DNA of 64,000 bases. Source: an uncultured Planctomycetales bacterium (GTDB taxonomy: Bacteria; Omnitrophota; Gorgyraeia; Gygaellales; JAHJCI01). Position 1 is the stretch's first letter; each line of letters begins with the position of its first letter. Shown here piece after piece: positions 1-20,623 of the stretch. The translations under genes were made by a program, and so were the position numbers. The stretch spans positions 456 to 64,455 of the forward strand of contig CAZQEY010000001.1 in the NCBI GenBank assembly GCA_964592485.1. The letters run 5' to 3'. The notes under the pieces are model-generated. The model saw nothing but the letters and a program-made list of their open reading frames with translations, had not been told where the DNA came from and searched no databases.

Positions 1-926
1 CTAACAATATTTCTCCATGGATTCTGGATTTGAGCCTCCTCGTTTTTATTTTGCAATAGAGTAACATCGTCTGAAAAACCAAGTTCTGAGACGAGTTTCT
101 GCAGGATAAAAGATGGGTCATCAGAAAAACGTACAATATGCCTATATTCATTTATGTCCCATTCTTGTATTGGCTCGTTGTGAGAGCTTCCTGGAAAAAC
201 GCAGATGTAACAAGGGAAATTATTACTTTTCAAAACATTAATCATGAAAGGAAAGATGTCCTCATCATTACCGCTGTACCCTACAATTAGAACAGGTGAT
301 GATTTAAGTATTTTTTCTAGCAGGTTCTTCTTTTTTTCAGCCAAATGTTGAATCTGATCTAATCTGAATTGCAGAGAATGAGATAAGCTTAAACATCCAT
401 GCGGTTTATAAATAACGAATTTTTTCAAAATCGAACTTATATTATCTGCAATCTCATGCTTACTTCTTATCAATGTAAAAGGCACTGAATATGACGCTAA
501 TGCTTTCTCGAAATATGTATCAAAATTGGTTGTAATGAGTTTGCGTAAAACACCAGCTTTCGCTAAAACGGCGATGCATTCATGATTCAGATTGGGTACG
601 GACTGATTAAGCCCGCCAATGAGTTCCAGGGTACTTCTCAATCCAATGTTACTTGAAAGTACCCACATAAAAGTCTCGGGTCTTAGTGTAATCTCTGTAG
701 TCCTTGATTTTATTGCTTCTAAGAATGGCTTCTTGGGCCAATCTTGTTGAAGAAGTCTATCAATAAAACATTCAAGAATAAATGCCTTCAGACCAATCCA
801 TGTTGGACAACCAGTTGGTGAAGGGACAGAAATACCTGCTCCAGCGAATATAACTAAGCCATGTTTTGCAGCTTGTTTAAATATTTCTTCCCTTATTGAT
901 TCATTATGAGAAAGGTCTGCTGACAT
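1..926 (-). CDS. SIR2-family (sirtuin-like NAD-binding) protein, partial; about 308 aa visible and the C-terminus lies beyond the window start
   Basis: Hand translation of the minus strand from the ATG at 924-926 gives MSADLSHNESIREEIFKQAAKHGLVIFAGAGISVPSPTGCPTWIGLKAF... It stays open down to position 3 with no stop, which is why it is missing from the ORF track. 'GAGIS' is the Sir2 Rossmann signature. Confidence 0.55.
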   Translation of the reverse strand, partial: MSADLSHNESIREEIFKQAAKHGLVIFAGAGISVPSPTGCPTWIGLKAFILECFIDRLLQQDWPKKPFLEAIKSRTTEITLRPETFMWVLSSNIGLRSTLELIGGLNQSVPNLNHECIAVLAKAGVLRKLITTNFDTYFEKALASYSVPFTLIRSKHEIADNISSILKKFVIYKPHGCLSLSHSLQFRLDQIQHLAEKKKNLLEKILKSSPVLIVGYSGNDEDIFPFMINVLKSNNFPCYICVFPGSSHNEPIQEWDINEYRHIVRFSDDPSFILQKLVSELGFSDDVTLLQNKNEEAQIQNPWRNIV

Positions 927-1024
927 TATATTTTCACTCCTAAATTTCAATATATTTAATTCTTAATGTAATTAATCTCCAATAGGATCGGTATGCAACT
1001 AATTGTTTTGAAATACAGCGGTCT

Positions 1025-1245
1025 AACGGCCGAGCTAAGCGAATTGCGTATAATGAGGGTTGCGAACAGAATATTAGCAACCCGGGTTATGCGCAATTTC
1101 GCTTCAGCGAGTTGTTGGCGTGTCGCGAATCAGCGCGCAGGCAACTTATCAGGTCGAGTAGCTATTCACATTCCCGAGTAGTTTTTGGGGTGAAAGCAGC
1201 CAACAACTCGCTGGGAAAGCGACAGCTTAGCTCGGCCGTTGCCGT
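1025..1245. ncRNA. GC-rich, highly structured element with nested long perfect stems; candidate structured RNA, strand and function unknown
   Basis: A 16-bp perfect pairing joins 1025-1040 (aacggccgagctaagc) with 1226-1241 (gcttagctcggccgtt). A 15-bp perfect pairing joins 1106-1120 (cagcgagttgttggc) with 1198-1212 (gccaacaactcgctg). An inner 7-bp stem joins gggttgc and gcaaccc. The GC content is far above the flanking AT-rich DNA. The + ORFs 993..1181 and 1112..1324 lie inside these stems and look spurious. Confidence 0.3.
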
Positions 1246-1270
1246 GGCGCGCAGCGACACGGCAACAATT

Positions 1271-1294
1271 AATAGACGAATGTCGTCTTTTATG
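1271..1294 (+). terminator. Short intrinsic-terminator-like hairpin (agacga-atg-tcgtct followed by ttttatg)
   Basis: A 6-bp stem with a 3-nt loop followed by a T-run. A near-identical copy lies at 1391-1414. Confidence 0.3.
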
Positions 1295-1297
1295 TTA

Positions 1298-1325
1298 TTG
1301 AATACAGCTCTAACATTAGTATAAT
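1298..1325 (+). promoter_or_regulatory. Sigma70-like promoter: TTGAAT, 16-nt spacer, TATAAT
   Basis: TTGAAT at 1298-1303 and TATAAT at 1320-1325. It would drive an ~80-nt + strand transcript ending at the 1391-1414 hairpin. A homologous arrangement (TTGAAATACAGCGGTCTAAC...TATAATG at 1006-1054) lies upstream with a 21-nt insertion in the spacer. Confidence 0.3.
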
Positions 1326-1390
1326 GACTAAATCGCTTATTTCAAGCATAAAAGTCGTCGACCAAGTTCGCATTTTGCCCGTAATAGCAT

Positions 1391-1414
1391 GATAGACGAA
1401 GGTCGTCTTTTCCG
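1391..1414 (+). terminator. Second copy of the agacgaaNgtcgtctttt hairpin
   Basis: gatagacgaaggtcgtcttttcc; a 6-bp stem followed by a T-run. Confidence 0.3.
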
Positions 1415-1507
1415 AAAAACCAATAGCAATTCACCTGTACTTAACTGCATAATTGGCGGAGTGAAAATTAGAGTAAGATACCCAGAAAGGAATCACCATA
1501 AAAAGAT

Positions 1508-1672
1508 TCTCTGTGGACAGGTCTGAGAGGTAACTCCCTTCACCAAGCCCAGAAATATCGCGCAAGGGGACGACCTCTCAAGACACAGCTATTGGGGAAT
1601 TTGAGAGGTATTCCTCGCTTCAAGCCCAGAAATACGGCGCGGCAGAAGAACTCTCTGTATACAGCTACTTAC
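1508..1672. repeat. Two tandem diverged copies of a ~77-80-nt unit, each able to form a hairpin
   Basis: Unit 1 (1508-1590) and unit 2 (1591-1672) share tgagaggta, caagcccagaaata, cgcg, ctctc and acagcta in the same order. Within unit 1, gagaggt pairs with acctctc and ctgtg with cacag. Confidence 0.5.
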
Positions 1673-1711
1673 CAGTTCCAAGTTAGGTGTCAATAAACCA
1701 CAGGATAATAA

Positions 1712-1849
1712 GGTGTGTGGAGATCAATATTAAGATTAAAATTAGGTAAGAAGGTTGAAGGAAAGAACCCGCTTGCTTTAAAGATTGATACTATTGAACG
1801 AATTGCCAAAGCGTTGAAAGTGAAGCCCGCCGAGTTGTTGAAGTTCTAA
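1712..1849 (+). pseudogene. Internally deleted remnant of an XRE-family HTH gene; paralogue of 3619..3834
   Basis: The + frame ending at TAA 1847-1849 reads ...LRLKLGKKVEGKNPLALKIDTIERIAKALKVKPAELLKF. The intact gene reads ...RLKLAKRIKQ[HTH]RIEGKNPPNIKLETIERLAKTLKTTPSRLLDF. The HTH segment is missing and there is an upstream stop at 1709. The 17-mer agttaggtgtcaataaa precedes both copies (1681-1697 and 3576-3592). Confidence 0.5.
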
Positions 1850-1869
1850 TCTTGCCATTAATTCTTCCC

Positions 1870-2742
1870 CTACTGTAACGCTTTCTTCGCTTCTTTGTAT
1901 TTTTCCTTAACAAATTGAGTTATCTTCTCAAGCTGTTCATCTTTACTTAGAGAAAAAAAATGGATATCTTCTAGACTTAAAGAAGCAGAGTAAATCAATT
2001 TGCCTTTTTTACCATAAGCCTCAATTATTATTGAAAGGGGGTTATCATGATATATTCCACAGAAAACTTTACTAGTCTCAATATAGAAACCAGAGTGACC
2101 CCATCCTCCAGATTTTAGTAATTTAAGTGACATCGCCTCAATCGCTACGCCAATCATATTTATAAGATTCTTAAAAGCAGGAAAACCATCAATATATTCC
2201 CACGAAACTTTTTGTACAGTCATGTTTTTCACCTCCAAAAATTTTAAAAACGAGTTTATAAAATACGTGCTAATGGGATTTTTACATTTAAGCTTCAAAA
2301 GCCAGTTTGCAACCTCGAACCAACGTACATGTTTATATGGTTTTTCTTGCTCCTGGTCAAAATCAATAGGAAATCTCGTTAATAAGATAACCTTTTTTAT
2401 AGGTACATTTGATATACTTAAAGCTGTTTTATACCGTTCTATTTGCCTATGTCCTAATCCAGAATCATGCTTAACTTCAATATATATTAACTTATCTGGA
2501 GAAGAGATTTTAATATCTGGCCTGCCCAGTTCTGTTGTTTCTTGTGTTGAAATTACGAGACTTTCATCATTCAAAAAATCAAAATCATTTTCTTTTACAC
2601 ATAGATGCCTCAGAATCTCTATGCAAGCAGAACGATCGCTCTCAAGCAGGGAATTAAGCACGAAAACAAAAGACTCTGTGAGATAGTTCTCGTCTACTGC
2701 TGAATTGTATTTTGATAAACTCGTGAATATATTATTAACCAT
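1870..2742 (-). CDS. PD-(D/E)xK nuclease superfamily protein; the track ORF is 1870..2790 but the start is likely the Met at 2742
   Basis: Motif ELGRPDIKISSPDKLIYIEVKHDSGLGHRQIERY (PD...E-V-K plus QxxxY). The first 16 codons of the track ORF overlap a strong hairpin terminator, so the second Met (MVNNIF...) is the more plausible start. Confidence 0.5.
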   Translation of the reverse strand: MVNNIFTSLSKYNSAVDENYLTESFVFVLNSLLESDRSACIEILRHLCVKENDFDFLNDESLVISTQETTELGRPDIKISSPDKLIYIEVKHDSGLGHRQIERYKTALSISNVPIKKVILLTRFPIDFDQEQEKPYKHVRWFEVANWLLKLKCKNPISTYFINSFLKFLEVKNMTVQKVSWEYIDGFPAFKNLINMIGVAIEAMSLKLLKSGGWGHSGFYIETSKVFCGIYHDNPLSIIIEAYGKKGKLIYSASLSLEDIHFFSLSKDEQLEKITQFVKEKYKEAKKALQ

Positions 2743-2754
2743 TTTTAGTGACCT

Positions 2755-2806
2755 ATAAAAACAAAAAACCTTTGCCTTCTTCGCAGGCAAAGGTTTTGCT
2801 TTTTGT
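2755..2806. terminator. Bidirectional rho-independent terminator
   Basis: An 11-bp perfect stem aacctttgcct / aggcaaaggtt with a 7-nt loop, flanked by an A-run upstream and ttgctttttgt downstream. Confidence 0.5.
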
Positions 2807-3618: not shown

Positions 3619-3834
3619 ATGAATACCGTAATTAGACTTAAATTAGCTAAAAGAATAAAGCAATTGCGCAAGAATCTTGGACTTACCCAAGAAAAACTTT
3701 CAGAAGTCTCAGGCATAGATTACAAATACATCCAAAGAATCGAAGGTAAAAATCCTCCCAATATAAAGCTTGAGACCATAGAAAGACTCGCCAAAACCTT
3801 AAAAACCACCCCCTCAAGACTGCTCGATTTTTAA
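3619..3834 (+). CDS. XRE-family helix-turn-helix transcriptional regulator (71 aa)
   Basis: LGLTQEKLSEVSGIDYKYIQRIE is a classic XRE HTH. Typical of phage and island control regions. Confidence 0.75.
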   Translation: MNTVIRLKLAKRIKQLRKNLGLTQEKLSEVSGIDYKYIQRIEGKNPPNIKLETIERLAKTLKTTPSRLLDF

Positions 3835-4765: not shown

Positions 4766-6445
4766 TTAATCATCTTCATCGCAACTATAAATATTATATT
4801 GTTTACCATAATCCCTGACATTGGGGTCTTGCGTAGCTTCCTCGCGAATTGGCTCGTCCTCGTCATCATCGCCGTTTAGATCGATCCATTTCGTTCCTTT
4901 TCTTTCTATATTTTCACGGCAAGCTCTTACAGCCATCTCCAAGGCATCCGGGCCATCATCGTGAGGGCCTTTCGGAAAATATCCCAATTGTACAAGAAGC
5001 TCTGTGTGTCTTTTGGAAAACTGAATCCTTCCGCTTTTAATAAGCACCTGCAGTGATTGAATCCTGGCGAGTTTATCCGTAGTATTGTTCAATTCTTCTA
5101 TAGGAGGATAGACTCCTCCTCTCGCCCCTTCATTTTTGATTGCATCTACCAATATGACTTGGAATTGATTTGACTCAAAGAAAAATTTGTTATAGTTACG
5201 TATCTTGCAGTATTCAAGGATGTCTTCGGTCAGTCTATCAGGCAGTCTTTTTGCAATATCAGCATCAATTACATAGATTATCCCCGTATTCTTATCGCGA
5301 GCTATCGTAATTATTGCGGAATAATCTCCTTGTCTTCCTTGCTTGCCAAGGCTTGGGTCACAGGCTCCAAATACCTCAAGGTCAAGTCCTGATGTCCGCA
5401 GTAATTCATCTACAGATGAATGATCTTTATCCCAATAGTAGAACTCATCTGGATTAAAATGGCGCTCTTTGGAGTTAACGGGTTCGTTCTGTTTCTCGGA
5501 ATCGAAACTCCATTCGCCTTCCTGTTCCCTTATCTCCATTAAAGTATAATAATCTTCTTGTTCAGGCCAAAGCACTCTTGTTCCTTCGAGCATTGCCTCT
5601 TTGTTATCAAGGTAGAAGGCATAGGCGGCTTCCTTTCCGCCTTTATCCTGATAAGTATCCCTGAAATTGAAGACAGCTGACCATTTCTGCCAAAGCTCAG
5701 GATGAGTCGACCAAGAGATAATGGCTTTATATTTCTTCTTACGCCAGCCAGGCATTTCATTATCCCGAAGTAGCTTTGCAAGCAGTGAATCGTAATGCAA
5801 AATTGTGCCAATGACTATGACATTCGTCTTAGGAGAACCCGCTTTAAGCACGGCCTTGGTAAACCAATCGTAAATCTTCTGGCGCATCTCCTGGCGAACC
5901 ACGTGCTCATCTCCTTCTATATCATCTGCGATAATCAATGATGGCCTTCCCTCCTTGTGGCGCCTTCCGCGTATCTTTTGGCCTGAACCGAGACTGGTGA
6001 CTTTAACGCCATTAGGGGTAATGATCTCGTTTTTCTTCCAGCATCTAGGCTTTGGGGAATCGTCTATAACGCATATCTCAGGGAAATCCTCGATTAATTT
6101 TTGATTGTTCTCCAGCTCGTATTTTATATGCGAAAGGTTATCCACTGCCTGATCCCTGGTCTCTGAAAGAAGCAGAATGTATTCTTCCTTCTTAAAGCAT
6201 ATGCACCAGAGAGTGTAAATAACGCTAACAATTGAACTCTTGGCATTGTCCCTGGGCGCTGCAACTGCTACGCGCTCATTACGCTTATTGCTTATCTCAA
6301 ACAGTAATTGATATATCTCCTCATGCATAGAGCAATCCGGCTTCTTACGATAGTGCTCGAAATAGATTTGAGCGAAAAGCCTGGGAGATTTCTCCGCCAG
6401 GTGCTTACGTAAATTTTTAATGCTATTGTTTATCTTCTCTGGCAT
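4766..6445 (-). CDS. Phage terminase large subunit (Terminase_6-like ATPase plus RNase H-fold nuclease)
   Basis: Walker A-like VAVAAPRDNAKSS (compare PRGHGKS), Walker B LIIADDIEGDE, C-terminal nuclease FGACDPSLGK...DYSAIITIARD. Confidence 0.7.
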   Translation of the reverse strand: MPEKINNSIKNLRKHLAEKSPRLFAQIYFEHYRKKPDCSMHEEIYQLLFEISNKRNERVAVAAPRDNAKSSIVSVIYTLWCICFKKEEYILLLSETRDQAVDNLSHIKYELENNQKLIEDFPEICVIDDSPKPRCWKKNEIITPNGVKVTSLGSGQKIRGRRHKEGRPSLIIADDIEGDEHVVRQEMRQKIYDWFTKAVLKAGSPKTNVIVIGTILHYDSLLAKLLRDNEMPGWRKKKYKAIISWSTHPELWQKWSAVFNFRDTYQDKGGKEAAYAFYLDNKEAMLEGTRVLWPEQEDYYTLMEIREQEGEWSFDSEKQNEPVNSKERHFNPDEFYYWDKDHSSVDELLRTSGLDLEVFGACDPSLGKQGRQGDYSAIITIARDKNTGIIYVIDADIAKRLPDRLTEDILEYCKIRNYNKFFFESNQFQVILVDAIKNEGARGGVYPPIEELNNTTDKLARIQSLQVLIKSGRIQFSKRHTELLVQLGYFPKGPHDDGPDALEMAVRACRENIERKGTKWIDLNGDDDEDEPIREEATQDPNVRDYGKQYNIYSCDEDD

Positions 6446-7133
6446 GGTTATCCGCCTCTTTATCGTTTTCGTTTATTTCGTTTGTTTTCTCTTTGGTCAA
6501 TTGTGTAATGTCCTTGGCTATTCCAGCCTGTTCAATGCGCATCTTAAGCGCGTTTATTCTGCCTTTTACTGCCTCATCCAAGACACCATTGTCAGTAGCT
6601 ATTTTCTCTAAAGTAATTAATTCTTCTTTTAACTCAACAAGGGTCTTTTCTTCATCTTGAGAATCATCGTGATGATAGATATTACTGATTATCTTCTGAG
6701 GTGCAGAAGGTAGATATCCTAAATTTTGCAGGCGTTCTACAGTCTGATTTTGAATTTCCCAGGCAAGGCGCTCGGCATTAATTCTTTCCTGCAAAGAGCC
6801 TTCACTTGAACGGGCAACCCGCATAAGATGCGCCACTTGTGACTTTGACTTGGTAATTAACTCGGCAATGAATTGCAAGGCTATTTCAGTAGTGGGTCTT
6901 TTAGAATTTCGCTGCCAGATATCCTCAAGGTCACGCTTGATAGTTTTCTCGCTCCTATCCAGTAACTGGGCAATAGCTGAGACAGAATAGCCTTCAAGAA
7001 TTAAAACTTCCACGCATTCTTGACGAGCCTCTTTGAATAAATCTTTTGCCTGTAGCATGCCATCTTTTATTTGTTTTAAAGTTTTATAGACTGGGATTTC
7101 TTCTTTGTTTGTAATTTGGTTATTATTTTCCAT
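6423..7133 (-). CDS. HTH DNA-binding protein (sigma-70 region 4-like), possibly the terminase small subunit
   Basis: ILEGYSVSAIAQLLDRSEKTIKRDL resembles a sigma70 r4 HTH. It sits immediately upstream of, and overlaps by 23 nt, the large terminase gene. The C-terminus is acidic. Confidence 0.4.
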   Translation of the reverse strand: MENNNQITNKEEIPVYKTLKQIKDGMLQAKDLFKEARQECVEVLILEGYSVSAIAQLLDRSEKTIKRDLEDIWQRNSKRPTTEIALQFIAELITKSKSQVAHLMRVARSSEGSLQERINAERLAWEIQNQTVERLQNLGYLPSAPQKIISNIYHHDDSQDEEKTLVELKEELITLEKIATDNGVLDEAVKGRINALKMRIEQAGIAKDITQLTKEKTNEINENDKEADNHAREDKQ

Positions 7134-7153
7134 ATTTAAATTACCTCTTTTTC

Positions 7154-8458
7154 TTATTTACCTATATATTTTTCAACCAACTCTTTTGAGACCTTATCTT
7201 CACCGACTGCCTTAATGTAGCGTTTGACTATGCCATCACAATAATAAGGATCGATTTCTATGCCAAAGCAAGTGCGGCTTAACATCTCAGCAGCAATCAA
7301 AGTTGTACCTGAGCCTAAGAAGACATCCATGACGATATCTTCTCTTTTTGAGCTATTTTTTATGGCTCTTGCAGCTAAAGCTATGGGCTTCTGAGTTGGA
7401 TGAATATAACTTGCCGTGTGATCACGTTTAACTTGCCAAAGAGTTGTTTCATTTACCGGCCCATACCAATTATGCACACCGTTATCTTCTTTCCAGCCAT
7501 ACATGCAGAATTCCGTCTGCTGATTATAATCGCCATAGCCTAAAGCGAAGCTCTCCTTTGCCCAGATTATTACGCAGGAAACATGATAACCGAGCCCTGT
7601 AAGCATCAGATACATCGGCCCAAATTGCTTATGGCCGTTCCAGAGATAGAAGCTTGAGCCTTTTTCAAGGTAAGGCGTAATATTGGTAAGGATTTGTTTC
7701 AGCCAGACTTCGTATTCTTCCTGAGTTAAGTTATCATTGTAAATTCTTTCCCAATTTTTTCCTCCTGTAGGCCGAGACTCTCTTGGATCAGGTCTATCGC
7801 CACCATAATAGTCAACGTTATAAGGTGGATCCGTAAAAATAAGATTTACTTTATTATTGCCTGTGAGTTTTGCTACGTCTTCAGGTTTTGAAGAATCACC
7901 GCAAAGGAGCTTGTGGCTGCCAAGTTCAATCAAGTCGCCTTTTTGAGTTACTGCTTCATCTTTATTAATCTCATCTTCAATATTGAAATTGTCTTCCTTT
8001 ATTTCTTCAGCCCTATCTAGGATTTGGCTTATTTCAGAAACGTCAAAGCCAGTCAAGACAACATCTAAATCTTGAGTTTTATTCAACTCGTTTAAAAGCA
8101 AAGCTAATTTCTCATCATCCCAATCGCCCCTTATCTTATTCAAAGCTAAATTGAGTGCTTTTTCTTTCTCAAGAGGTAAGTCAACTATGCTTGCCTCAAC
8201 TTCAATTAATCCCTGTCCAATAAGAATTTTCAGCCTCTGATGGCCGCTTACTAAATTGCCGGTTTGCCGATTCCAAACTAGCGGCTCAACATAACCAAAA
8301 GAATCGATACTGTTCTTAAGTTTTTCATATTCAGCGTCACCCGGCTTTAGATTAACTCGCGGGTTATATGCCGCGGGATTGATTTTTGAAATTGATATTT
8401 TTTGAATGTTCATTTTATTTCCCTCCTTATTTGTGAATTTAATCTTGGTCTTTCTCAT
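7154..8458 (-). CDS. ParB-like nuclease domain fused to an N6-adenine/N4-cytosine DNA methyltransferase (beta class)
   Basis: N-terminus ISKINPAAYNPRVN...SGHQRL (ParB-like). C-terminus IFTDPPYNVDY (motif IV DPPY) followed later by FLGSGTT (motif I), which is the beta-class order. This is the usual phage orphan methyltransferase next to terminase genes. Confidence 0.8.
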   Translation of the reverse strand: MRKTKIKFTNKEGNKMNIQKISISKINPAAYNPRVNLKPGDAEYEKLKNSIDSFGYVEPLVWNRQTGNLVSGHQRLKILIGQGLIEVEASIVDLPLEKEKALNLALNKIRGDWDDEKLALLLNELNKTQDLDVVLTGFDVSEISQILDRAEEIKEDNFNIEDEINKDEAVTQKGDLIELGSHKLLCGDSSKPEDVAKLTGNNKVNLIFTDPPYNVDYYGGDRPDPRESRPTGGKNWERIYNDNLTQEEYEVWLKQILTNITPYLEKGSSFYLWNGHKQFGPMYLMLTGLGYHVSCVIIWAKESFALGYGDYNQQTEFCMYGWKEDNGVHNWYGPVNETTLWQVKRDHTASYIHPTQKPIALAARAIKNSSKREDIVMDVFLGSGTTLIAAEMLSRTCFGIEIDPYYCDGIVKRYIKAVGEDKVSKELVEKYIGK

Positions 8459-8943: not shown

Positions 8944-11355
8944 TTACATTTTTACGGTAAATTTCTTAGAAAGTAGCCGCAAAATTAGCTTCTGCTTTAG
9001 TAAAATGCGGTATTTTATCTCTAATACATTTCTTCCTTCATGAAATCTAATATAGTCTCGCCGTTGCACTTGCGGCAAATATTTTTCATATTTCTTGAAG
9101 ACTTTAATTACAAGTTGTTTTGCAATTCTATTCCACTTCTTCCCCCGTGACGATAAAGTTGCTATCCCATATTTCTCAAGAATAGCCGAAATATCGGCTT
9201 CATACTCTACCAATCTTTCAGAACAAATAACCCTTTCGTAACGTGCCGCATTCTCAATCAAGGAAATTTCCCCGGAACTCAAAATATTCTCAATCGGTTC
9301 CAGGATATTCTTTCCATATCTAAAGGGGTGAATAATGGGCAGAAAATTCTCCTGCTCTATTATAATCTTCGCAAGGTACTCCCATTTTTGCATATGAGTC
9401 TTGTTTTCTATTTTAAAATTACGTCCTATTAGACTTTGCATCTGGAGTAGATTTAAAAAATGGTATCTATAGAAAAATTTTTCATTCGAATGTAGAATTA
9501 ATTCCTCGCTTAAAAGTTTATCGATAACTTCCTTTAAAGGAGGCTCGCCGATTATCCGGCTTGCTAATTTCTGCTCAAGCTCTTTAATAGTCAAATATTG
9601 ATAATATTTAAGTAATGCAATTACAGTGCTTGCTAAAACTTTTTCCTTTCCTGTATCTTTAACTGCTGTTCCTGGAGTCAACTGGAACACTGGAATATTC
9701 TCTTTAAGGCGCATATTTTTAAGGGCGCAACTCTGGGCAAAGAAGGTTTTCCACATTCTCTCAGAAGACAACTCAAAAAGTTTTTGAAGATTTGGGTCGG
9801 TATATGTCTCCCTGTCCCAGCATATAAAAAATTTATTGCCAAAAATATCTTCAAAAAGAGAGGTAGGCTCATCGAATTCCCTAACATCTTTTTGAAGCAA
9901 TCTCCCGCATCCGGAAAAATATCTGCTCAGCTCTAAATGACCCCGCCAAAGATTCTGATCCATATTCAAGAAAAATGAACAAAGTTTAAATTCATCAACT
10001 AACATTTTTTCGCAAGTAGGTATACCTGCAAGGGTAAGTAAGCCTTCTTTAATTTCAGCTCTCTTAGAGCGCGCTATGAGAAATTCTGTGCGTGGAGTAA
10101 GCCTTGCTCTCCCTATATAAGGCATAATTCTCCACTGAGTCAGCAATATACTAGCAGGCCACTTTGCTGAACTCATATCTCTTATAATTGGATAAGTAGT
10201 TTTACAGCCAGCCATTATTTCTATCTCAGGGAATATAATTTTATAGTAATTGCTCCCTTGGTATTGTTTTTTTGCACTTGCTGAGGCATCAATTATGATT
10301 CCAAGCAATTCAGGAGGTAAGCCATTATCTCTTAATTCCTTAAAATCTATAGCCGATGGCAGGCGTGCTTTTAAATAATCTAAAAACTGCATGGGCATAG
10401 CGTTTAATTCATAACTTGCATTGGCAAAATGTACAAGTTTCTCTCTTAAACTCAAATCACTTATAGCTTCCCAGTCGCAAAATTGAATTACTTCAAAAAA
10501 TTTTTTTGTTTTTTCTTGGCTGCGCAAAAATTCTGAGTATATACCTTTAAAAATATCTGACACTGCTCCAGCAAATTGGACAATTTCGATATTTTTTTCA
10601 GCCGTAGGAGAACCTTCAATTAAGTCAATATCTAAACAGCCAAATGCAGATTTAAGCAACTCTATATCTGATTTGTAATAAATTAAAATTTGCCCAAACT
10701 GAGCAAGGGGTAATTCCTTATATATGTAATGGTAGTGAGGTCCTGGCAGCCATATGTTAGTGTGTTTCAGGAAAACAAAATCTCCGCAAACCTGAAACAA
10801 TTCCCTTGCAGGGAATGATCTCCCGTGAGCCTCTACCAAAGCATTTGTTTTATCTTTCACTTCCTCTAACTCACACTCGCCTGCTCTAAATAACATAGTA
10901 GCTAATCCATATTTATAGGCCAAAAGAGAATTTTCCCTGGCAAAAACCTTATGTTTCCCTAGCCTTTCTTTAATTTTGCAGGTTTTCAGCGACCTAGAAA
11001 CTGGAGAAAAGTAATGCCAATTATCCCCGCTGCCATCTGCAGGAATCGGAATTTCATAGAGCCTAAAGGGGCTCGCTTGAACTTCGCCTTTTATTGCTTT
11101 TGGCAAATGATTGGCTTTTTCTTGCAAACTTAAAGTTTTCACTCTAAGCCGCGCAAGTTCTAACGCAGCTTCTTCTGCCTTAGCTCTTGAGATAACTAAC
11201 TCGGGTCCTTTTATATATTTCCTTAAAAGTGGCGGGAGGCAAGAAAGGTCTAAATGGGTATCAAATAGAAACCTACACCTTTTAACTTCTACAGCTTGGT
11301 AATCTTCAAGGATTTTCTCACTATTTGCATTTTGAGATAATGTAGCCATGTTCAA
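8944..11355 (-). CDS. 803-aa protein of unknown function; last gene of the DISARM-like operon, possible DrmE-like accessory component
   Basis: Its start overlaps the upstream PLD gene by 35 nt, which suggests translational coupling. No recognisable catalytic motif and no TM segments. Confidence 0.5.
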   Translation of the reverse strand: MNMATLSQNANSEKILEDYQAVEVKRCRFLFDTHLDLSCLPPLLRKYIKGPELVISRAKAEEAALELARLRVKTLSLQEKANHLPKAIKGEVQASPFRLYEIPIPADGSGDNWHYFSPVSRSLKTCKIKERLGKHKVFARENSLLAYKYGLATMLFRAGECELEEVKDKTNALVEAHGRSFPARELFQVCGDFVFLKHTNIWLPGPHYHYIYKELPLAQFGQILIYYKSDIELLKSAFGCLDIDLIEGSPTAEKNIEIVQFAGAVSDIFKGIYSEFLRSQEKTKKFFEVIQFCDWEAISDLSLREKLVHFANASYELNAMPMQFLDYLKARLPSAIDFKELRDNGLPPELLGIIIDASASAKKQYQGSNYYKIIFPEIEIMAGCKTTYPIIRDMSSAKWPASILLTQWRIMPYIGRARLTPRTEFLIARSKRAEIKEGLLTLAGIPTCEKMLVDEFKLCSFFLNMDQNLWRGHLELSRYFSGCGRLLQKDVREFDEPTSLFEDIFGNKFFICWDRETYTDPNLQKLFELSSERMWKTFFAQSCALKNMRLKENIPVFQLTPGTAVKDTGKEKVLASTVIALLKYYQYLTIKELEQKLASRIIGEPPLKEVIDKLLSEELILHSNEKFFYRYHFLNLLQMQSLIGRNFKIENKTHMQKWEYLAKIIIEQENFLPIIHPFRYGKNILEPIENILSSGEISLIENAARYERVICSERLVEYEADISAILEKYGIATLSSRGKKWNRIAKQLVIKVFKKYEKYLPQVQRRDYIRFHEGRNVLEIKYRILLKQKLILRLLSKKFTVKM

Positions 11356-12160
11356 TCTCAGTAGACTTGTCCCATATAATATTAAATAGCCGCGTAAGTA
11401 CTTTTGCTTTATTTGCGGATTTAATAACCGCCCCTACTTCAAAATTATTGCAGAGCGCATTAAGCCTTATTTCTGCACTGCCAATATATACTTCTTTTAT
11501 TCCGCTTATAATCAGTTTTGCGTGAAGAGCTTCCACAACACTCTTCCTGCCCTTACTACTTTCTGCTATATACGAATAATTGGCGATTGAAATGTTTTTG
11601 CCAAAAAATGAAATAAGGTCATATAAACCTAAAATTTGGCTCACTGAGGGATTATCTATATCATCTATCCTGGTAATTAACCTAACAGAAACTTTTTGAT
11701 TTGCCGCCCGGCTAAATGCCTTTTCTAAATATTGAACTCCTCCCCTGTCCAGAAATGGCGAACAGATAAGCAACTCTGACTTACAGGAAGATATAATCTC
11801 GCTAATTAAATCTCTTATCTTCTGAATATTTAGAGTAGAAAGCGATTGCCTCAAAGAACTATGTAGCGTCGTAGCAATAAAGCAATTTTCAGAAACTTCT
11901 TTCGCATCGAGTGGCTTTATTTTTTTAATTTCTTTAGGAGGATGCGCAATTGTATCAGGGACTTTTGCTGCAATTAAACTCACCTTACTTCTTTCGAAAT
12001 CCGGATTATCTTCAATTATTGCCAAAGCTTCTGAGCCCATAAGTTGAAAAATTAACTCGCGCGCCTCTGGAGGCTTCATGCCTTTAGAAACAAAAAACTC
12101 AGTAAGCTGCCTAATTTCTAGAGGCCATTTCAAGCTAATTAATTCTCTTACGCCAGGCAT
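11321..12160 (-). CDS. Phospholipase D-family (HKD) nuclease; DrmC-like
   Basis: HKD motif LHAKLIISG...GSAEI (HxK...GSxN). 279 aa. It overlaps the upstream gene by 13 nt. Confidence 0.7.
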   Translation of the reverse strand: MPGVRELISLKWPLEIRQLTEFFVSKGMKPPEARELIFQLMGSEALAIIEDNPDFERSKVSLIAAKVPDTIAHPPKEIKKIKPLDAKEVSENCFIATTLHSSLRQSLSTLNIQKIRDLISEIISSCKSELLICSPFLDRGGVQYLEKAFSRAANQKVSVRLITRIDDIDNPSVSQILGLYDLISFFGKNISIANYSYIAESSKGRKSVVEALHAKLIISGIKEVYIGSAEIRLNALCNNFEVGAVIKSANKAKVLTRLFNIIWDKSTEIEHGYIISKCK

Positions 12161-13794
12161 TTATCCCAATATCCTATATTTTTACTTATAGTAACTACTA
12201 ATTTTCTGTCTAAGTTTGCATTGAACATTTCATTACATGACCTCTCAGCAATATATAAACACCCATGACACGCGGACGGTACATGAGCTTCGCATAAAGG
12301 GTCATAGGGGCAATTCTCTGCAGCATGCCTTGTTTTATGGAGCCAATTATACATCTGCGATTCAAAAGTTGACTTTAAAGCGCCTAACTCTGTGCCTTCA
12401 GTGCTGAAAATCACAAAAGACATTGCTGGGGTAAATACCATTTCCCCTAAGTTATCTCTGGATATTCCGCTAAAAATTTCACTCTGCCTGATCATGAGGT
12501 GGCTAATTGTATGAAGGAGAGTTTTTACTGCGGAAGGAATATCTCCTGCACAATCTCCGCTAGAAGTTAGCAAGATTTTCCGCAGTGATTTTTCATCCAA
12601 TTCTTTTCCTGATTTATTCAGCCAATTTACTACTCTTGCAGGTGACAATTCTACAAGGAGCGCCTCACTTTCATAACACCTCGTTAAGACATTATAATTC
12701 CCATACCCGGCATCAAATAATTGTAGTTTGGAATTAGCTTCATCTGTAGAGCCAACAAGGTAGCCATATACCATTGTTACTAGAGGTATACGGTCCAGGT
12801 AAAACAATTTTAACCCAAAATCTTTTTCTACCTTTGATGCCTCTGCCTCACTTAGCTTGCCGTCAAAAGCTATATGTGAGGTAGCGCCTTTATATTCGGA
12901 AAGCAGCCTCCTTACATTGAAAGAAATCTCTCCTATTTCCTCCCGGATAATTTCCTCTCGAGACCTCTCGCTGGGGTGCTTCTCTTTATAATCGGCAATC
13001 ATCTTTTCCTTGAAACTCTCATCAGCTTCCATATTCCGTTGAGCTATTTCTCTCATTGGCTCTGGCAAATCTCCCAGAATTTTCTCTTCAAGAGTGCCGC
13101 CCTCAAATCTAAACCACGAATCTATACACTCTTCCCAGCCCGAACCTACATCTACAGCGTTTATAGACATAGGCTTTATAGCAGAAGCTGCTGGCATAGG
13201 CTTCATTTTAACTCTATCGTCAGTTGAGCAATTACATAAATAGCTAAGGTGAACTTTAGTTTTGCAATTTGGGCAAAGCCATGTTGACTTAGCAAAATTC
13301 TCTTTCACAAGGTAAAGTTCAAAATAACTTTTCTTACATTCGTAACATAGCTTAGGTTTAATTTCCTGAATATTTCCGCATTGAGGGTGAGTAAATATGT
13401 GGACAATTTGCGAGAGCGAACTTTTACAATTTGGGCATATAAAGTCGCTTTCTTTAATATCTTTCTTCTTTTGCAAATCGTACACTTTATTGCACTGCGG
13501 GCATAAGAATGACGCCGGCGCTAACTCGGGGTCAATACTTCTATATTCTCTAAATTGAAATTGCCTCTTTGCAGGTAGCCGCTTACCTTTCCCTTCTGTA
13601 AGTCCCATTTCATGCCTGCATATCCTCTGTGTAATTATCCTTTCAAGCCTTACTTCATCGCGGACTTTTGCATTAGATAGAATTCGCTCATAATTATTCC
13701 CTGCCTTGCACATTATATCCCGAACGAGAAAATAAGCATTCGGGAATGCATAAAACAAAGCAGCAGATATACTCATTTCATTTCTCTTTATCAT
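12148..13794 (-). CDS. Cys-rich zinc-ribbon protein, DUF1998-like; DrmB-like
   Basis: Two N-terminal CxxC...CxxC zinc ribbons (CPQCNKV...CPNCKSS and CYECKKS...CPNCKTK) and a C-terminal CPYDPLCEAH...CHGC cluster. Its ATGA start overlaps the stop of the helicase gene. Confidence 0.55.
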   Translation of the reverse strand: MIKRNEMSISAALFYAFPNAYFLVRDIMCKAGNNYERILSNAKVRDEVRLERIITQRICRHEMGLTEGKGKRLPAKRQFQFREYRSIDPELAPASFLCPQCNKVYDLQKKKDIKESDFICPNCKSSLSQIVHIFTHPQCGNIQEIKPKLCYECKKSYFELYLVKENFAKSTWLCPNCKTKVHLSYLCNCSTDDRVKMKPMPAASAIKPMSINAVDVGSGWEECIDSWFRFEGGTLEEKILGDLPEPMREIAQRNMEADESFKEKMIADYKEKHPSERSREEIIREEIGEISFNVRRLLSEYKGATSHIAFDGKLSEAEASKVEKDFGLKLFYLDRIPLVTMVYGYLVGSTDEANSKLQLFDAGYGNYNVLTRCYESEALLVELSPARVVNWLNKSGKELDEKSLRKILLTSSGDCAGDIPSAVKTLLHTISHLMIRQSEIFSGISRDNLGEMVFTPAMSFVIFSTEGTELGALKSTFESQMYNWLHKTRHAAENCPYDPLCEAHVPSACHGCLYIAERSCNEMFNANLDRKLVVTISKNIGYWDKCLA

Positions 13795-16700
13795 TTCTTC
13801 AGCTCCTCTAAATCTTCATCTTCTCCAGTTTCTTCTCTTTCTACTTCTGTTTCTTCATCTACCGGCGCTTCTTTTACATTAATTTTCGCTAAGCCCGCTC
13901 GCTTTGCTGCTTCTACTGCAGAGTTATACTTTACCTCAACTTGCGGCTGAATATTTCGAAGGCTATAACGAAATTTGCCTTGGCTTTTAAAAGGGTCTGT
14001 TATAAATGAACTTGGATTTTCTTTAACAGCTTCCTTAAAGTATTCCCAAAAATCCTCAATTTTTTCCTCATATGCTCCGCTGCCATCATCTTGAGAGCGG
14101 TAAATGCGTTTAAGAATTCCCAGCATTTCCTTTTCAGGAAAGCCACTTTCTAAAGCATCTCTTACTCTATTGCACCAGCGGAAATCTTGCCCCATCTTTG
14201 GTCCAAAATGGAACAAAAGCAAAGAGACAACAATGTTATTAAATGTTTGGTCTATTGCTGTGCGCGCAAATCTATTCAGAGGAATACCTTCAAGTATTTT
14301 ATCAGCAGTATGTACAAATGGACTCCAATATGTATAATATGAAACATCTCTGTCCTTATTGGGGCCGAGGACTGCTAAACAGAAAGCAGGTTTTCTCCGA
14401 CCTGTCCTGTTAAGAGTCTGGATGAATTCGCTTACATTAGAAGGAAGGCCAAAGAAAAATATGCTATTAAGATTCTCTATATCAATGCCTATAGAGGCGA
14501 TGTTTGTTGCATATATAAGTTCTTGCTGACGATTTTTTATTTTCTCTACAACTGAAGCCACCTTTTCTTCTTCAAAGTGCCTGCCAGAAAGCTCAACATA
14601 GCGCAGTGGAGGCGACCCTCTCTGTACTCTTTTAGGATTTATAGCATTCTTTATCATTTCCTGAAGGGTGTTTATATTTTTGTATGAAGAACAATAAATC
14701 ATAATCTGAGAAATAGAATAAAGTGGGTGGTTTATGTTAACGTGGCTTATATCAAAGCCGTAAATTTCAGCAAGAGTTTCAAAGTAAATATTACATAAGT
14801 CTGGTATAGCCCATGTTAATGGCCTATCTTGCGGCAATAAAGCAAGGGTTATATGTTTTAATTCGCTCTTCTCTATATAATATGCTCGGCTTTCTTTTTG
14901 GGGAGGCAGAATTATAGATTCTCCCTTGCCTACAAATCCAAGCTGGAACATGTGCCTCTTTATATAAGCAATAGTTGCTGTAGAAACAATAGGAATAGGG
15001 TATACACCAGTGTTTGCTTTGAAGATTTCTGCATAATCTGTCTCTATATGTGAATTTAATGTTCCTTCCGGCCCTCTGATTAAATGGCCTTCATCTAAAA
15101 TCAGAATACCAGGCTTTACTACTTGCTTTGAATTAGATAAGTCTCTCTTACAATCTGGGCAGCGGTTTCCAAGCATATAGCCGTGGTTTGGGCAAAAATA
15201 GGCTTCAATACCTAATAGGTTCCTTAACTTTTGCTGCATGGACCTTGCTATGAATTTATCCCACGTTGCAATCAAAAAACTTGGCACCTGAAAAAATATC
15301 TCATCTCCTATACCTAATGTGAGCCTATGCCCTTTTTCGCATATAAGTTGAGACGCGCCTGCGCAAAACTTTTTTTCTTCTTTCCATTCGCTATTGCAAA
15401 CTCCTCTTCCTGAAATAGGCCTTGGACATTTGCTTATAATATCTTTTGGCGACTCATAGGCCCCCTTCTTGCCAACAAAATATCCTATTCCTGCTGGCTC
15501 TCCTAAAATTTCATCCAAAACAATACTATATCCAGCAAGCCTCCGCGCCTGATCACTGCTTAACAGTGTAACAGGGTATTTGATTATATTAATTGACTTA
15601 GAACCTTTTTGTTTCTCAAAAAAGATAGCCCACATAGCCGCCGAAAGGAAACTCTCTGTTTTGCCTCCAGCAGTTGGAATATTTAGCACTATTGGCTGAA
15701 GATCCATTTTTCCCTTTAGGTAACAACTGGCAGCTACAAGCAAAGTAACTAATTGGTGACAATACCAAGGCACCTCTTTTCCAAAACACCGACCGTATAC
15801 TTCTGATACTTTCTTAAACGCACCCATACCTTGTGGAGAACGCTTAATTTCTTCAGCGCACTCCTTAAGAAAAGAAATATGAGCATCACTAGCTCCTGCT
15901 TTTTCTAATATCGAAATAACTGAATCTATGGCTTCTCCAGGAGCTTCTGCGGCTTCCTTAAATGTGGGGCCTTTCCTGGGTTCTTCCATCTGCGTTTTTG
16001 ACTTAGCAATTGGTGTAAAAATTAGTTCTTTTTCTGTACTTAGCTCTTTATCAAAGGAAATATTAGCACTAAATGCTTCTACATTATAGTCATCCAGAAC
16101 GGGGCATTTAAAATCCATTAGCGAATTCTCTTTTAAGCCAATTTTTATTCTTACATCGAACCAGTTTGACTCTCCAGCCGCCCTGCTTTTGCCGCTATAC
16201 GTGTTCGCCAATATTATAGAGACTAGCGAAGCCCCATCTTCCCTTATTTCAGAATTAACAGCAATACTGCCTTGCCAGTTTGGCGAATCTCCTAAAGATT
16301 TATAACTTTCTCTGAAATCTGCAAGGTCTAATTCTACAAAGTTATTTTCAAGACTGAGCCTAAATGTTTTGGCATAACGCTTTCTAATAAATACAGTCTG
16401 ACTTTGCGCTTCTCCTTTCTCTGGAGCCGGCGCGCTCTGACTAGAATGTGTTCCGTTAACCGGTGATTGAGATAGTCTTTCTCTCCAATCTTTCCATATT
16501 TCATCTTCTTTTATCTCATCAGCTAATCCTCTTAAGTCTTGCAAAACTTTACCTTTTAACGGCGCCTTTGCCCGAAAGTACAGCGTAAAAGAGGGAGTAA
16601 TACTTATATCCTTAAGCTCCCCCTGTACTCTAAATTGCACCTTACAAGAGCTAGGTGCAACTTTACTTTTATATTCAAAGTTTCTCCTATTTGAGTCAGA

Positions 16701-17532: not shown

Positions 17533-17548
17533 AGTCTAACTATAAAAT

Positions 17549-20622: not shown

Positions 20623-20623
20623 A

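What the first reader, a model, noticed from the sequence alone, without database searches (positions are those of the whole stretch)
927..1869. 940-bp non-coding, GC-rich, highly structured region between a PD-(D/E)xK nuclease gene and a SIR2 gene
Two defence-associated genes on the same strand (nuclease 1870..2742 and SIR2 1..926) are separated by nearly 1 kb with no credible ORF. The stretch instead holds nested perfect stems of 15-16 bp, paired promoter/terminator units and tandem structured repeats. This has the look of an RNA component, such as a guide, scaffold or antitoxin-like RNA, linked to a SIR2/nuclease module. Retron and type III TA analogies were considered and rejected (see noticed_but_rejected).
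Basis: seen in the sequence. Interest (0 to 1): 0.65.

Follow-up and report, generated by a model that had tools for sequence, protein, structure and literature searches.

The report
Orphan structured element in defence-island junction
The 940-base gap between the nuclease and SIR2 genes is a patchwork junction inside a bacterial defence island; one 250-base piece folds exceptionally strongly and may be a small RNA gene, but nothing ties it to either neighbouring gene.

Summary
The structure is real. Window 1020-1270 (here U1) is 54% G+C in a 37% genome. It carries nested perfect stems of 16 and 15 bp and folds far better than shuffles (z about -10 as RNA on either strand, -11 as ssDNA). No Rfam family matches.

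The gap is not one unit. It is a mosaic:
- an AT-rich SIR2 start region;
- U1 plus a terminator;
- a small promoter-terminator unit (U2) sharing U1's end modules;
- a spacer;
- 2.3 copies of a ~77-nt repeat;
- a decayed HTH gene.

The repeats belong to a dispersed family. I found it beside unrelated genes in three other contigs, two of them clearly related islands (the family is probably Omnitrophota). The units are not significantly structured. In 3 of 5 arrays they sit 13-17 nt upstream of near-consensus promoters.

The nuclease is a conserved backbone gene of an island family (ParB-methylase, terminase-like genes, nuclease) with variable downstream cargo. SIR2 is one such cargo. Neither nuclease-homologue loci nor SIR2-homologue loci carry U1.

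Best reading: U1 is an orphan small structured RNA on the + strand, possibly regulating SIR2. A guide, scaffold or antitoxin role for a SIR2/nuclease pair is unsupported. Interest is modest.

The parts
3..926 (-). SIR2-family gene, first 308 codons (runs off the window start). It is a cargo gene of the island. The RBS AGGAG lies 9 nt before the ATG at 926.
   Evidence: PF13289 SIR2_2, E 2.7e-15. PADLOC SIR2-type hits. Only 7 homologues found, none above 59%. P0124 suggests a further C-terminal helical domain beyond the window.
927..1019 (.). AT-rich (24.7% GC) region upstream of SIR2. Presumably holds the SIR2 promoter/5' UTR. No + strand promoter reaches 9/12 here.
1004..1056 (+). U1 copy of the promoter-like module (TTGAAA...TCTAAC...ATTGCGTATAATGA). 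Relative to the intact U2 copy, the spacer carries a 19-nt insertion that is the 5' arm of stem P1. The -35/-10 spacing is therefore 35 nt.
   Evidence: Direct repeat D4; pairwise alignment; sequence.
1020..1270 (+). U1: an orphan, GC-rich (53.8%), multi-stem structured element. Its parts are P1 1025-1040/1225-1240 (16 bp perfect), hairpin A 1042-1098, P2 1105-1119/1199-1213 (15 bp perfect) enclosing a multi-branch loop, and hairpin C 1238-1266. The strand is uncertain; + is favoured.
   Evidence: G-U pairs 9 on + versus 2 on -, and MFE -133 versus -119 kcal/mol. No Rfam hit.
1272..1291 (+). T1: terminator module ATAGACGAATGTCGTCTTTT (6-bp stem, 3-nt loop, T run) directly after U1.
   Evidence: (D2).
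1298..1345 (.). Back-to-back promoter-like sites. On the + strand, TTGAAT-16-TATAAT (1298-1325, 10/12) drives U2. On the - strand, TTGAAA-16-TATACT (1345->1318, 10/12) could drive a SIR2 mRNA with U1 as a ~385-nt leader.
   Evidence: consensus matches only.
1326..1411 (+). U2: a short (~80 nt) promoter-to-terminator unit ending in T2 (1392-1411, 19/20 identical to T1). Weakly structured (z -2.65).
1412..1501 (.). Spacer with no homologue. It contains GGAGTGAAAAT (1458-1468), identical to the SIR2 RBS region on the other strand. The breakpoint with the repeat array is at about 1501.
   Evidence: I12.
1502..1675 (-). Array of a dispersed ~77-nt repeat: a truncated third unit (1502-1521), unit A (1522-1599) and unit B (1600-1675). 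The conserved core on the gene-sense (minus) strand is CTGTATACAGAGAG...TTCTGCCGCGCCGTATTTCTGGGCTT...CCTCTC. Conservation is at sequence level; the units are not significantly structured.
   Evidence: nhmmer hits to L136 (E 3e-14) and to L172 and L157. Unit HMM finds 11 units. Z-scores. Truncation.
1715..1849 (+). Remnant (C-terminal 33 residues) of an XRE/C-protein-type HTH gene, a paralogue of the intact 71-aa gene at 3619-3834. The same scar follows the nuclease in L135.
   Evidence: HTH_26 hit; 55% identity; L135 2149-2259, 77%.
1870..2742 (-). PD-(D/E)xK-like nuclease, a conserved backbone gene of the island family. It is not specifically linked to SIR2.

Best explanation
The 943-bp gap is a mosaic junction between the conserved backbone of an integrated defence island and a separately acquired SIR2 cargo module. 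It is not one RNA locus.

**Layout, read in the direction of the genes (minus strand)**
1. The backbone nuclease gene.
2. The scar of an HTH gene.
3. An array of a dispersed ~77-nt repeat. In related loci this array sits just upstream of cargo promoters. Here it is cut off at about 1501.
4. The SIR2 module, about 1500 down to 1, with its own upstream region.

**What the SIR2 upstream region holds**
- It carries two tandem, paralogous promoter/terminator-type units on the opposite (+) strand.
- The larger unit, U1 (about 1020-1291), is most likely an orphan structured small RNA of ~250-270 nt ended by an intrinsic terminator.
- U2 (about 1332-1411) is a short sibling.

**Likely mode of action (inferred)**
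- U1 and U2 lie antisense to, or divergent from, the SIR2 5' region.
- Their most plausible role is local control of SIR2 expression. This would be cis-antisense or sRNA-type control of a potentially toxic NADase.
- A guide or scaffold role for a SIR2-nuclease pair is not what the evidence suggests.

**Shown:** the structure, the mosaic composition, the repeat family, and the lack of conservation with either gene.

**Inferred:** transcription, strand, and regulatory role.
For: **Structure of U1**
- z is -9.8 and -10.2 as RNA and -11.1 as ssDNA.
- P1 and P2 pairing probabilities are >0.93.
- Its GC content is in the top 0.4% of 250-nt windows in the 64 kb. The P1 and P2 arms are the only two long-range perfect inverted repeats of >=15 bp there.

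**Evidence for the + strand**
- 9 G-U pairs on + versus 2 on -, and about 14 kcal/mol better folding.
- A stem-plus-T-run terminator lies immediately 3' of U1 on +.
- That terminator is repeated 19/20 after U2. U2 also has a 10/12 promoter on +.
- U1 and U2 share their 5' and 3' modules.

**Mosaic composition**
- The HTH remnant is 55% identical to the C-terminus of the intact HTH gene, and the same scar is present in L135.
- 11 repeat units occur in the window, L136, L157 and L172, beside unrelated genes: ClpP-like/STAND, SurE/ParA-RelA, Na-H antiporter/TetR.
- 11/12 promoters lie 13-17 nt after three of the arrays.
- The array in the window is truncated at about 1501.

**Island backbone**
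- Large serine recombinase next to a tRNA, DISARM genes, ParB-methylase, and TerS/TerL-like genes.
- The same ParB-methylase/terminase-like backbone, with the nuclease further on, recurs in L131 and L133; L136 shares the nuclease and its downstream cargo. Cargo differs in each.
Against: - No recognisable promoter feeds U1 on the + strand. Its copy of the promoter module is split (35-nt spacer), and a start after its TATAAT would exclude the 5' arm of P1.
- 31 of 31 pairs in P1 and P2 are Watson-Crick. That is more typical of DNA-level inverted repeats, or of a very young structure, than of an old RNA.
- No homologue exists in any collection scanned, so there is no covariation test.
- There are no expression data.
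- A - strand promoter (1345->1318) could equally make U1 the SIR2 leader.
- An independent assembly of the same locus (Logan contig L001) stops at window 1684. The part to its left therefore rests on a single assembly.
Confidence: 0.42

Rival explanations
1. U1 is a cis-acting 5' leader of the SIR2 mRNA. Transcription would start at the minus-strand promoter TTGAAA-16-TATACT (1345->1318). It would run through T1, which does not terminate in this direction, then through the structured domain and into SIR2. The leader would be ~385 nt and would control SIR2 expression (riboswitch- or attenuator-like, or a stability element).
For: - The promoter matches 10/12 on the gene-sense strand.
- The leader-plus-start region folds with z -7.4, and P1 and P2 are equally probable on this strand.
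- Related cargo modules have a promoter following the repeat array in the same orientation.
- P1's 5' arm lies inside the defunct + strand promoter copy. This fits a transcript that covers the whole region.
- A distant SIR2 homologue (L174) has a GC-rich hairpin in its upstream region.
Against: - The G-U asymmetry (2 versus 9) and the 14 kcal/mol difference favour the other strand.
- There is no terminator or anti-RBS logic next to the SIR2 start.
- Other SIR2 homologues have unstructured upstream regions.
- Promoter-like hits are only slightly above the shuffle expectation (10 versus 6.2).
Confidence: 0.2
2. U1 acts, or merely exists, at the DNA level. It could be a palindromic or MITE-like insertion. 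It could be a quasi-palindrome perfected by template switching. It could be a cruciform or ssDNA signal (recombination site, single-strand origin or single-strand promoter) of the mobile island. In each case it would have no dedicated RNA product.
For: - Both long stems are perfect Watson-Crick, 31/31.
- ssDNA folding gives z -11.1.
- The P1 arms look like 16-bp terminal inverted repeats around 184 bp.
- The 5' arm is an insertion into a pre-existing promoter spacer.
- The location is a recombination-prone cargo junction next to a truncated repeat array.
- The element is an orphan, which fits a young or selfish element.
- A TATAAT box sits in hairpin A opposite two T-G mismatches.
Against: - There is no target-site duplication.
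- There is no second copy in 64 kb, in viral contigs or in species-representative genomes.
- The nested stems have unrelated sequences, so they are not sites for one recombinase.
- The structure has several distinct branches rather than one long palindrome.
- The strand asymmetry in G-U content suggests selection on one single strand.
Confidence: 0.2
3. The region encodes an RNA partner (guide, scaffold or antitoxin) of a two-gene SIR2 + PD-(D/E)xK nuclease defence system.
For: A strong structure lies between two defence-type genes on one strand. SIR2 effectors are toxic and need control (established knowledge of SIR2 NADase effectors).
Against: - The nuclease and SIR2 are not co-conserved.
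- U1 is absent from all homologous loci of both genes.
- The tandem repeats belong to a dispersed family next to unrelated genes.
- An HTH pseudogene and a truncated repeat array between the genes show that the junction is a recombination scar.
- No target complementarity was found.
Confidence: 0.06
4. Assembly artefact. The segment left of about 1684 was mis-joined through the repeat array, or U1 is a chimeric construct of metagenome assembly.
For: - The Logan contig of the same locus ends at window 1684, 9 nt beyond the array.
- The SIR2 protein is absent from the protein collection although the nuclease is present. This would fit the source contig ending inside SIR2.
- The repeat is multi-copy in relatives.
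Against: - Assembly artefacts give long simple fold-backs, not nested short perfect stems with distinct loops, terminators and duplicated modules.
- A mis-join would explain adjacency but not the existence of U1.
- A truncated third repeat unit grading into unique sequence looks like a biological breakpoint.
Confidence: 0.06

Closest known systems
Intrinsically terminated bacterial small RNA genes / cis-antisense regulators of toxic genes (for example type I toxin-antitoxin antisense RNAs, or RNA regulators of Abi systems such as the AbiF-associated RNA listed, seen in the search listing only and not read)
   Same: - A compact, GC-rich, highly structured non-coding unit that ends in a stem plus T-run terminator.
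- It lies divergent from, or antisense to, the 5' region of a potentially toxic effector gene on a mobile element.
   Different: - No promoter is identified for U1.
- No homologues and no covariation are available.
- Its ~250-nt size and multi-branch fold are larger than typical antisense RNAs.
- No demonstrated overlap with the SIR2 transcript.
REP/BIME-type dispersed intergenic repeats
   Same: - The ~77-nt units are multi-copy and strictly intergenic.
- They occur in short tandem arrays.
- Their orientation relative to flanking genes is fixed.
- They lie after gene 3' ends and beside unrelated genes.
   Different: - The units are not significantly palindromic or structured.
- Conservation is strongest in a 26-nt core.
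- Arrays sit 13-17 nt upstream of strong promoters in 3 of 5 cases. This looks more like a protein-binding or promoter-upstream module.
- No RAYT-type transposase was seen.
Retron msr-msd non-coding RNA
   Same: Flanking inverted repeats (P1, like a1/a2) enclose stem-loops and a long near-perfect stem. The context is a defence island.
   Different: - No reverse transcriptase was found among the island ORFs examined.
- A terminator, not an RT gene, follows the element.
- There is no Rfam match.
Type III toxin-antitoxin (ToxIN-like) repeat arrays
   Same: Tandem direct repeats lie near a defence gene.
   Different: - The units are 77 nt rather than about 36-45 nt.
- There is no ToxN/AbiQ-type toxin.
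- In relatives the arrays lie upstream of the next gene's promoter, so they are not co-transcribed with it.
- The same repeats flank housekeeping-type genes.
Integron attC sites / MITEs
   Same: Imperfectly to perfectly palindromic non-coding DNA at cassette junctions. The left end GTCTAAC fits the attC R'' consensus RYYYAAC.
   Different: - The right end GTTGCCG does not fit GTTRRRY.
- There are no extrahelical bases.
- It is 216 bp long, against 57-141 bp for attC.
- There is no integron integrase, no target-site duplication and no further copies.

Membership tests
Any curated RNA family (Rfam 15) | Covariance-model match at or near the gathering score | tested here: not met
   The window at gathering threshold gives only tmRNA and 4 tRNAs. 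For 800-2000 at E<=10, the best hits are 15-20 bits against cut-offs of 50-112. Related loci give nothing at E<=0.1.
Retron | Reverse transcriptase gene adjacent to and co-oriented with the ncRNA | tested here: not met
   Pfam/PADLOC scans of island ORFs from 3 to 22681 show no RT. Downstream of U1 on the + strand are a terminator, U2 and repeats.
Retron | a1/a2 inverted repeats flanking msr/msd stem-loops | tested here: inconclusive
   P1 (16 bp) encloses hairpin A and the P2 domain. This topology is not specific to retrons.
Type III toxin-antitoxin | Tandem ~34-45-nt repeats, then a terminator, then a ToxN/AbiQ/CptN-type endoribonuclease gene on the same strand | tested here: not met
   The units are 76-82 nt. 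No such toxin appears in Pfam/PADLOC scans. In related loci the arrays are followed by promoters and unrelated genes.
Two-gene SIR2 + nuclease defence system | Co-occurrence of the two genes across genomes | tested here: not met
   21 genome loci and 8 contig loci with nuclease homologues have other neighbours. SIR2 homologue loci lack the nuclease.
sRNA gene with own promoter and intrinsic terminator | Intrinsic terminator at the 3' end | tested here: met
   T1 at 1274-1288 plus a T run, and T2 at 1394-1408 plus a T run, both on the + strand.
sRNA gene with own promoter and intrinsic terminator | Promoter at the 5' end | tested here: inconclusive
   U2 has TTGAAT-16-TATAAT (10/12). U1's homologous module has a 35-nt spacer, and no other + strand promoter reaches 9/12 in 927-1060.
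sRNA gene / structured RNA | Structure conserved through compensatory changes in relatives | not testable with these tools
   No homologue of U1 was found in phage or plasmid records, viral contigs, species-representative genomes or about 45 anchored loci.
REP/BIME-like dispersed repeat (for units 1502-1675) | Multiple intergenic copies beside unrelated genes | tested here: met
   11 units in 4 loci; flanking genes are unrelated.
REP/BIME-like dispersed repeat (for units 1502-1675) | Each unit is a stable imperfect palindrome | tested here: not met
   Unit z-scores are -1.7 to +0.8 on both strands. RNAalifold finds no consensus hairpin.
Integron attC site | R''/R' core sites RYYYAAC...GTTRRRY, extrahelical bases, 57-141 bp, integron integrase or attC cluster | tested here: not met
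   Only the left core fits (sequence). The stem is perfect. The element is 216 bp. No tyrosine integrase was seen; the only recombinase is a large serine recombinase 18 kb away.
Invertible promoter switch (inverton) | Inverted repeats flanking a promoter, with both orientations present in the population | not testable with these tools
   The 16-bp perfect inverted repeats flank 184 bp that contain a TATAAT. Reads from the sample are needed to look for the flipped orientation.

The most novel reading that the evidence does not exclude
U1, perhaps together with U2, is a dedicated RNA regulator of the SIR2(-TPR-like) effector. It could be an RNA antitoxin or antisense brake. It could be a structured sensor RNA whose loss or cleavage during infection releases the NADase. 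Either would be an RNA-controlled SIR2 defence module of a kind not yet described.
Probability: 0.08. Interest if true: 0.75.

Novelty: new member of a known kind. Interest (0 to 1): 0.33.

Why it matters
- If U1 is a real RNA, it adds an uncatalogued structured RNA from a barely studied phylum, probably Omnitrophota, sitting beside a toxic NADase gene. Such orphan RNAs in defence islands are candidates for RNA-based control of immune effectors.
- The more solid result is negative but useful. A long, GC-rich, highly structured 'spacer' between two defence genes need not be a system component. Here it is a recombination junction in a modular island.
- The by-products may help delimit cargo modules in these poorly known genomes. 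One is a dispersed ~77-nt repeat that sits just upstream of cargo promoters. The other is a conserved backbone: ParB-methylase, terminase-like genes and nuclease.

Tried and rejected
**Searches for a known family or a relative of the region**
- Rfam, at both gathering and E-value thresholds: nothing. ARAGORN: no tRNA-like gene.
- blastn of the region against phage and plasmid records: nothing.
- Exact-pattern scans:
  - the P1 16-mer and the repeat-core 14-mer in viral contigs gave only chance hits;
  - the terminator module and the repeat core in viral contigs gave none;
  - the two-arm P1 pattern in species-representative genomes gave none, so the source genome is not in that collection.
- The metagenome scan with the repeat core gave 17 loci, of which 15 were chance matches in coding DNA, for example IspD-like.

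**Tests of specific hypotheses**
- Small ORFs in U1/U2 as peptides: no Pfam hit, and the ORFs arise from palindromic DNA.
- Guide-like complementarity of U1/U2 to the rest of the window: only chance 10-13-mers.
- Comparable inverted repeats in related islands: none.
- A conserved hairpin for the repeat units: not supported.
- A conserved structured region upstream of SIR2 homologues:
  - L005 and L176 have none;
  - L174 has an unrelated GC-rich hairpin with no sequence similarity.
- The N-terminal half of the HTH gene elsewhere in the gap (a split-gene or intron idea): not found in any frame.
- CRISPR-like reading of the two GTTG...GCAAC palindromes (1114-1145, 1238-1266): rejected, because they are 92 nt apart and there are only two copies.
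Full report
**Context**

Window 1 to about 21000 is an integrated mobile island in a 37% G+C genome. The nearest nuclease homologues come from Candidatus Omnitrophota MAGs.
- A large serine recombinase with a DUF2924 partner (18791-20622) lies next to a tRNA at 21344.
- A DISARM-type system follows: DrmA 13791-16850, DrmB 12148-13794, DrmC 11321-12160, and a C5 methylase 17549-18472.
- Then come a ParB-N6/N4 methylase (7154-8458), a small HTH protein (6423-7133) and a terminase-large-subunit-like protein (4766-6445). After these are an RNase HII-like gene, an intact 71-aa XRE/C-protein HTH gene (3619-3834, + strand), a 119-aa ORF, the PD-(D/E)xK-like gene (2742->1870) and the SIR2 gene (926->off the window).

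The same ParB-methylase, HTH and TerL-like genes, with the nuclease further on, recur in L131 and L133/L139. L136 shares the nuclease and its downstream cargo. In each case different genes lie before and after the nuclease: KAP NTPase, FRG, SEC-C, TPR, HD, SurE, TIR, ClpP-like and STAND proteins. The closest nuclease homologue (75%; L002-L004) lies among Type I restriction and PIF1 helicase genes. It is followed after 53 nt by another gene. The nuclease is therefore a backbone or frequent gene with variable neighbours. The position downstream of it is a cargo site.

**Check of the observation**

The coordinates and the lack of credible ORFs hold. The one exception is a 44-aa ORF at 1715-1849. 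It is the C-terminal remnant of an HTH gene, 55% identical to residues 39-71 of the intact paralogue. The same remnant follows the nuclease in L135 (77% DNA identity).

The structured core is 1020-1270.
- It has stems of 16 and 15 perfect base pairs, nested, plus two further hairpins.
- MFE is -141 kcal/mol for 1000-1295. The z-score is -9.8 (+), -10.2 (-) and -11.1 as ssDNA.
- Pairing probabilities of both long stems exceed 0.93 on either strand. The longest perfect inverted repeat in 300 shuffles was 11 bp, against 16 observed.
- These two are the only long-range perfect inverted repeats of >=15 bp in 64 kb.
- GC content is 53.8%, which only 0.4% of 250-nt windows reach.

The rest of the gap is not GC-rich, apart from 1522-1675 (50.6%). 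Region 1412-1715 is not significantly structured.

**Anatomy of the gap**

1. **927-1019.** 25% GC. It carries the SIR2 RBS.
2. **U1, 1020-1270.** It is followed by T1 (1272-1291), a 6-bp stem with a T run on the + strand.
3. **Back-to-back promoter-like sites at 1298-1345.** There is one on each strand, both 10/12.
4. **U2.** About 80 nt on the + strand, ending in T2 (1392-1411), which is 19/20 identical to T1.
   - U1 and U2 also share a 5' module. In U2 it reads TTGAAT-ACAGCTCTAAC-ATTAG-TATAATGA.
   - In U1 the same module carries a 19-nt insertion that is exactly the 5' arm of stem P1. Its -35 and -10 are therefore 35 nt apart.
5. **Spacer, 1412-1501.** No homologue found.
6. **Repeat units.** A truncated unit (1502-1521) and two full units (1522-1599, 1600-1675) of a ~77-nt repeat.
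7. **The HTH remnant.**

**The repeats**

nhmmer found 1535-1666 in L136 (E 3e-14), 5 kb from a 70%-identical nuclease. The match includes an invariant 26-mer.

Scanning metagenome contigs with that core recovered two true relatives:
- L172, a contig syntenic with L136, with six units in three arrays;
- L157, with one unit.

An HMM finds 11 units in all, and none elsewhere in the 64-kb window.

Arrays always have the same orientation relative to the flanking genes, and they always follow a gene's 3' end. The flanking genes are unrelated:
- ClpP-like and DUF4062-NACHT-TPR;
- SurE and a 184-aa/ParA-like/RelA-SpoT operon;
- that same operon and a Na+/H+ antiporter;
- the antiporter and TetR.

In three of five arrays the only strong promoter of the region (11/12) begins 13-17 nt beyond the array and points at the next gene.

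The units themselves are not significantly structured on either strand (z -1.7 to +0.8). RNAalifold finds no shared hairpin. They are therefore best read as a dispersed, sequence-conserved, promoter-upstream DNA module, or a REP-like repeat. They are not a structured RNA of a SIR2 system.

In the window the array is broken inside its third unit at about 1501, and no promoter follows. This marks the point where the SIR2 module, with U1 and U2, was joined.

An independent assembly of this locus (Logan contig L001) ends at window 1684, 9 nt beyond the array. That fits a repeat or strain-variable boundary. It also means the segment to its left rests on one assembly.

**Is U1 tied to SIR2 or to the nuclease?**

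U1, U2 and the spacer have no detectable relative in any of the following:
- about 30 nuclease-anchored loci;
- the loci recovered by the repeat scan;
- SIR2-anchored loci;
- phage or plasmid records;
- pattern scans of viral contigs and representative genomes.

The SIR2 family is rare: 7 hits, of at most 59% identity over a part. Three homologues have usable upstream DNA.
- L005 is unstructured (z +0.58).
- L176, a viral contig with a 640-nt AT-rich gap, is unstructured (z -0.65 and -0.02).
- L174 has a 135-nt GC-rich hairpin (z about -4) with no sequence similarity to U1.

So there is no conserved RNA partner of this SIR2 family.

No guide-like complementarity to the rest of the window exists. 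No RT, ToxN-type or Cas-type gene is nearby.

**What U1 most likely is**

Three readings remain.

*(a) A + strand small RNA.*
- For: 9 versus 2 G-U pairs and about 14 kcal/mol better folding on +. A terminator lies directly 3' on +. The paralogous unit U2 has a good promoter and the same terminator.
- Against: no intact promoter, and a start after U1's own TATAAT would exclude the P1 5' arm.

*(b) The 5' leader of SIR2.* It would come from the minus-strand promoter at 1345->1318. This fits the array-promoter-gene pattern of sister modules, and it includes both P1 arms. The G-U asymmetry disfavours it.

*(c) A DNA-level palindromic element or signal.*
- For: the 31/31 Watson-Crick pairs of P1 and P2, the fact that one arm is an insertion into an older promoter module, and its orphan status.
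- Against: no target duplication, no further copies, and a multi-branch rather than simple palindromic shape.

I rank (a) first at about 0.4, with (b) and (c) at about 0.2 each. In (a) and (b) the likely function is local control of the SIR2 cargo gene. That step is inference only.

**Novelty and interest**

Nothing here matches a described RNA family. However, an orphan structured element without homologues, expression data or covariation cannot be called a new class. The link to a SIR2/nuclease system, which gave the finding its appeal, is not supported.

What remains:
- a candidate small RNA or leader next to a SIR2 effector in an understudied phylum (probably Omnitrophota);
- a new dispersed promoter-upstream repeat family;
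- a clear picture of a modular defence island.

Noticed in passing
window 8944-18472: A DISARM-type defence system on the same island: DrmA-like helicase (13791-16850), DrmB (12148-13794), PLD DrmC (11321-12160) and a C5 cytosine methylase (17549-18472). It also holds an 803-aa protein with no family hit (8944-11355) and an HhH-GPD glycosylase-like gene (16816-17532).
   Followed up: partly
window 4766-8458; L131 1-2965; L133 1-3388: A recurrent backbone, apparently in Omnitrophota: ParB-N6/N4 methylase, a small HTH (TerS-like?) protein and a TerL-like protein. It has no capsid genes and is followed by variable defence cargo. It looks like a satellite-like or terminase-bearing island family.
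   Followed up: partly
window 18791-21414: A DUF2924 protein and a large serine recombinase lie next to a tRNA gene (21344-21414). This is the likely integration end of the island.
   Followed up: no
window 1458-1468 versus 930-940: An 11-nt perfect match: GGAGTGAAAAT on the + strand equals the SIR2 RBS region on the - strand. On a long minus-strand transcript this would be an anti-RBS 520 nt upstream. It may be chance or a relic of an inverted duplication.
   Followed up: no
L001 end = window 1684: The independent Logan assembly of this locus stops 9 nt beyond the repeat array. The SIR2 protein is missing from the protein collection although the neighbouring nuclease is present. Possible causes are strain-level cargo variation, a repeat-induced break, or the source contig ending inside SIR2.
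   Followed up: partly
L174 340-480: A distant SIR2 homologue (34% identity, soil contig) has a 135-nt GC-rich long hairpin (53% GC, z about -4) in its upstream region. On the antisense strand it ends in a T run, just before an 11/12 promoter for the divergent gene. It is not similar in sequence to U1.
   Followed up: partly
window 2758-2804; L136 1663-1712; L172 9476-9521: A conserved bidirectional terminator-like hairpin (AAAACCTTTGCC...GGCAAAGGTTTT) lies just upstream of the nuclease gene in the window and in L136, and at a matching position in L172. This suggests the nuclease cassette moves with its flanks.
   Followed up: no
L135 1178-1245 and 2149-2259: HTH-gene fragments lie on both sides of the nuclease gene in L135. 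The window likewise has an intact HTH at 3619-3834 and a remnant at 1715-1849. This suggests cassette exchange by recombination within HTH genes.
   Followed up: partly
window 32138-32545: The tmRNA gene (181 bits) has an insertion of about 50 nt relative to the Rfam model in the region after the resume codon. This may mean an unusually long tag-coding stretch.
   Followed up: no
window 3-926 versus P0124: The best partial SIR2 homologue (59% over the C-terminal third) continues into a ~250-residue helical, TPR-like domain. The window's SIR2 is therefore probably a longer SIR2-plus-sensor protein cut by the window edge.
   Followed up: no
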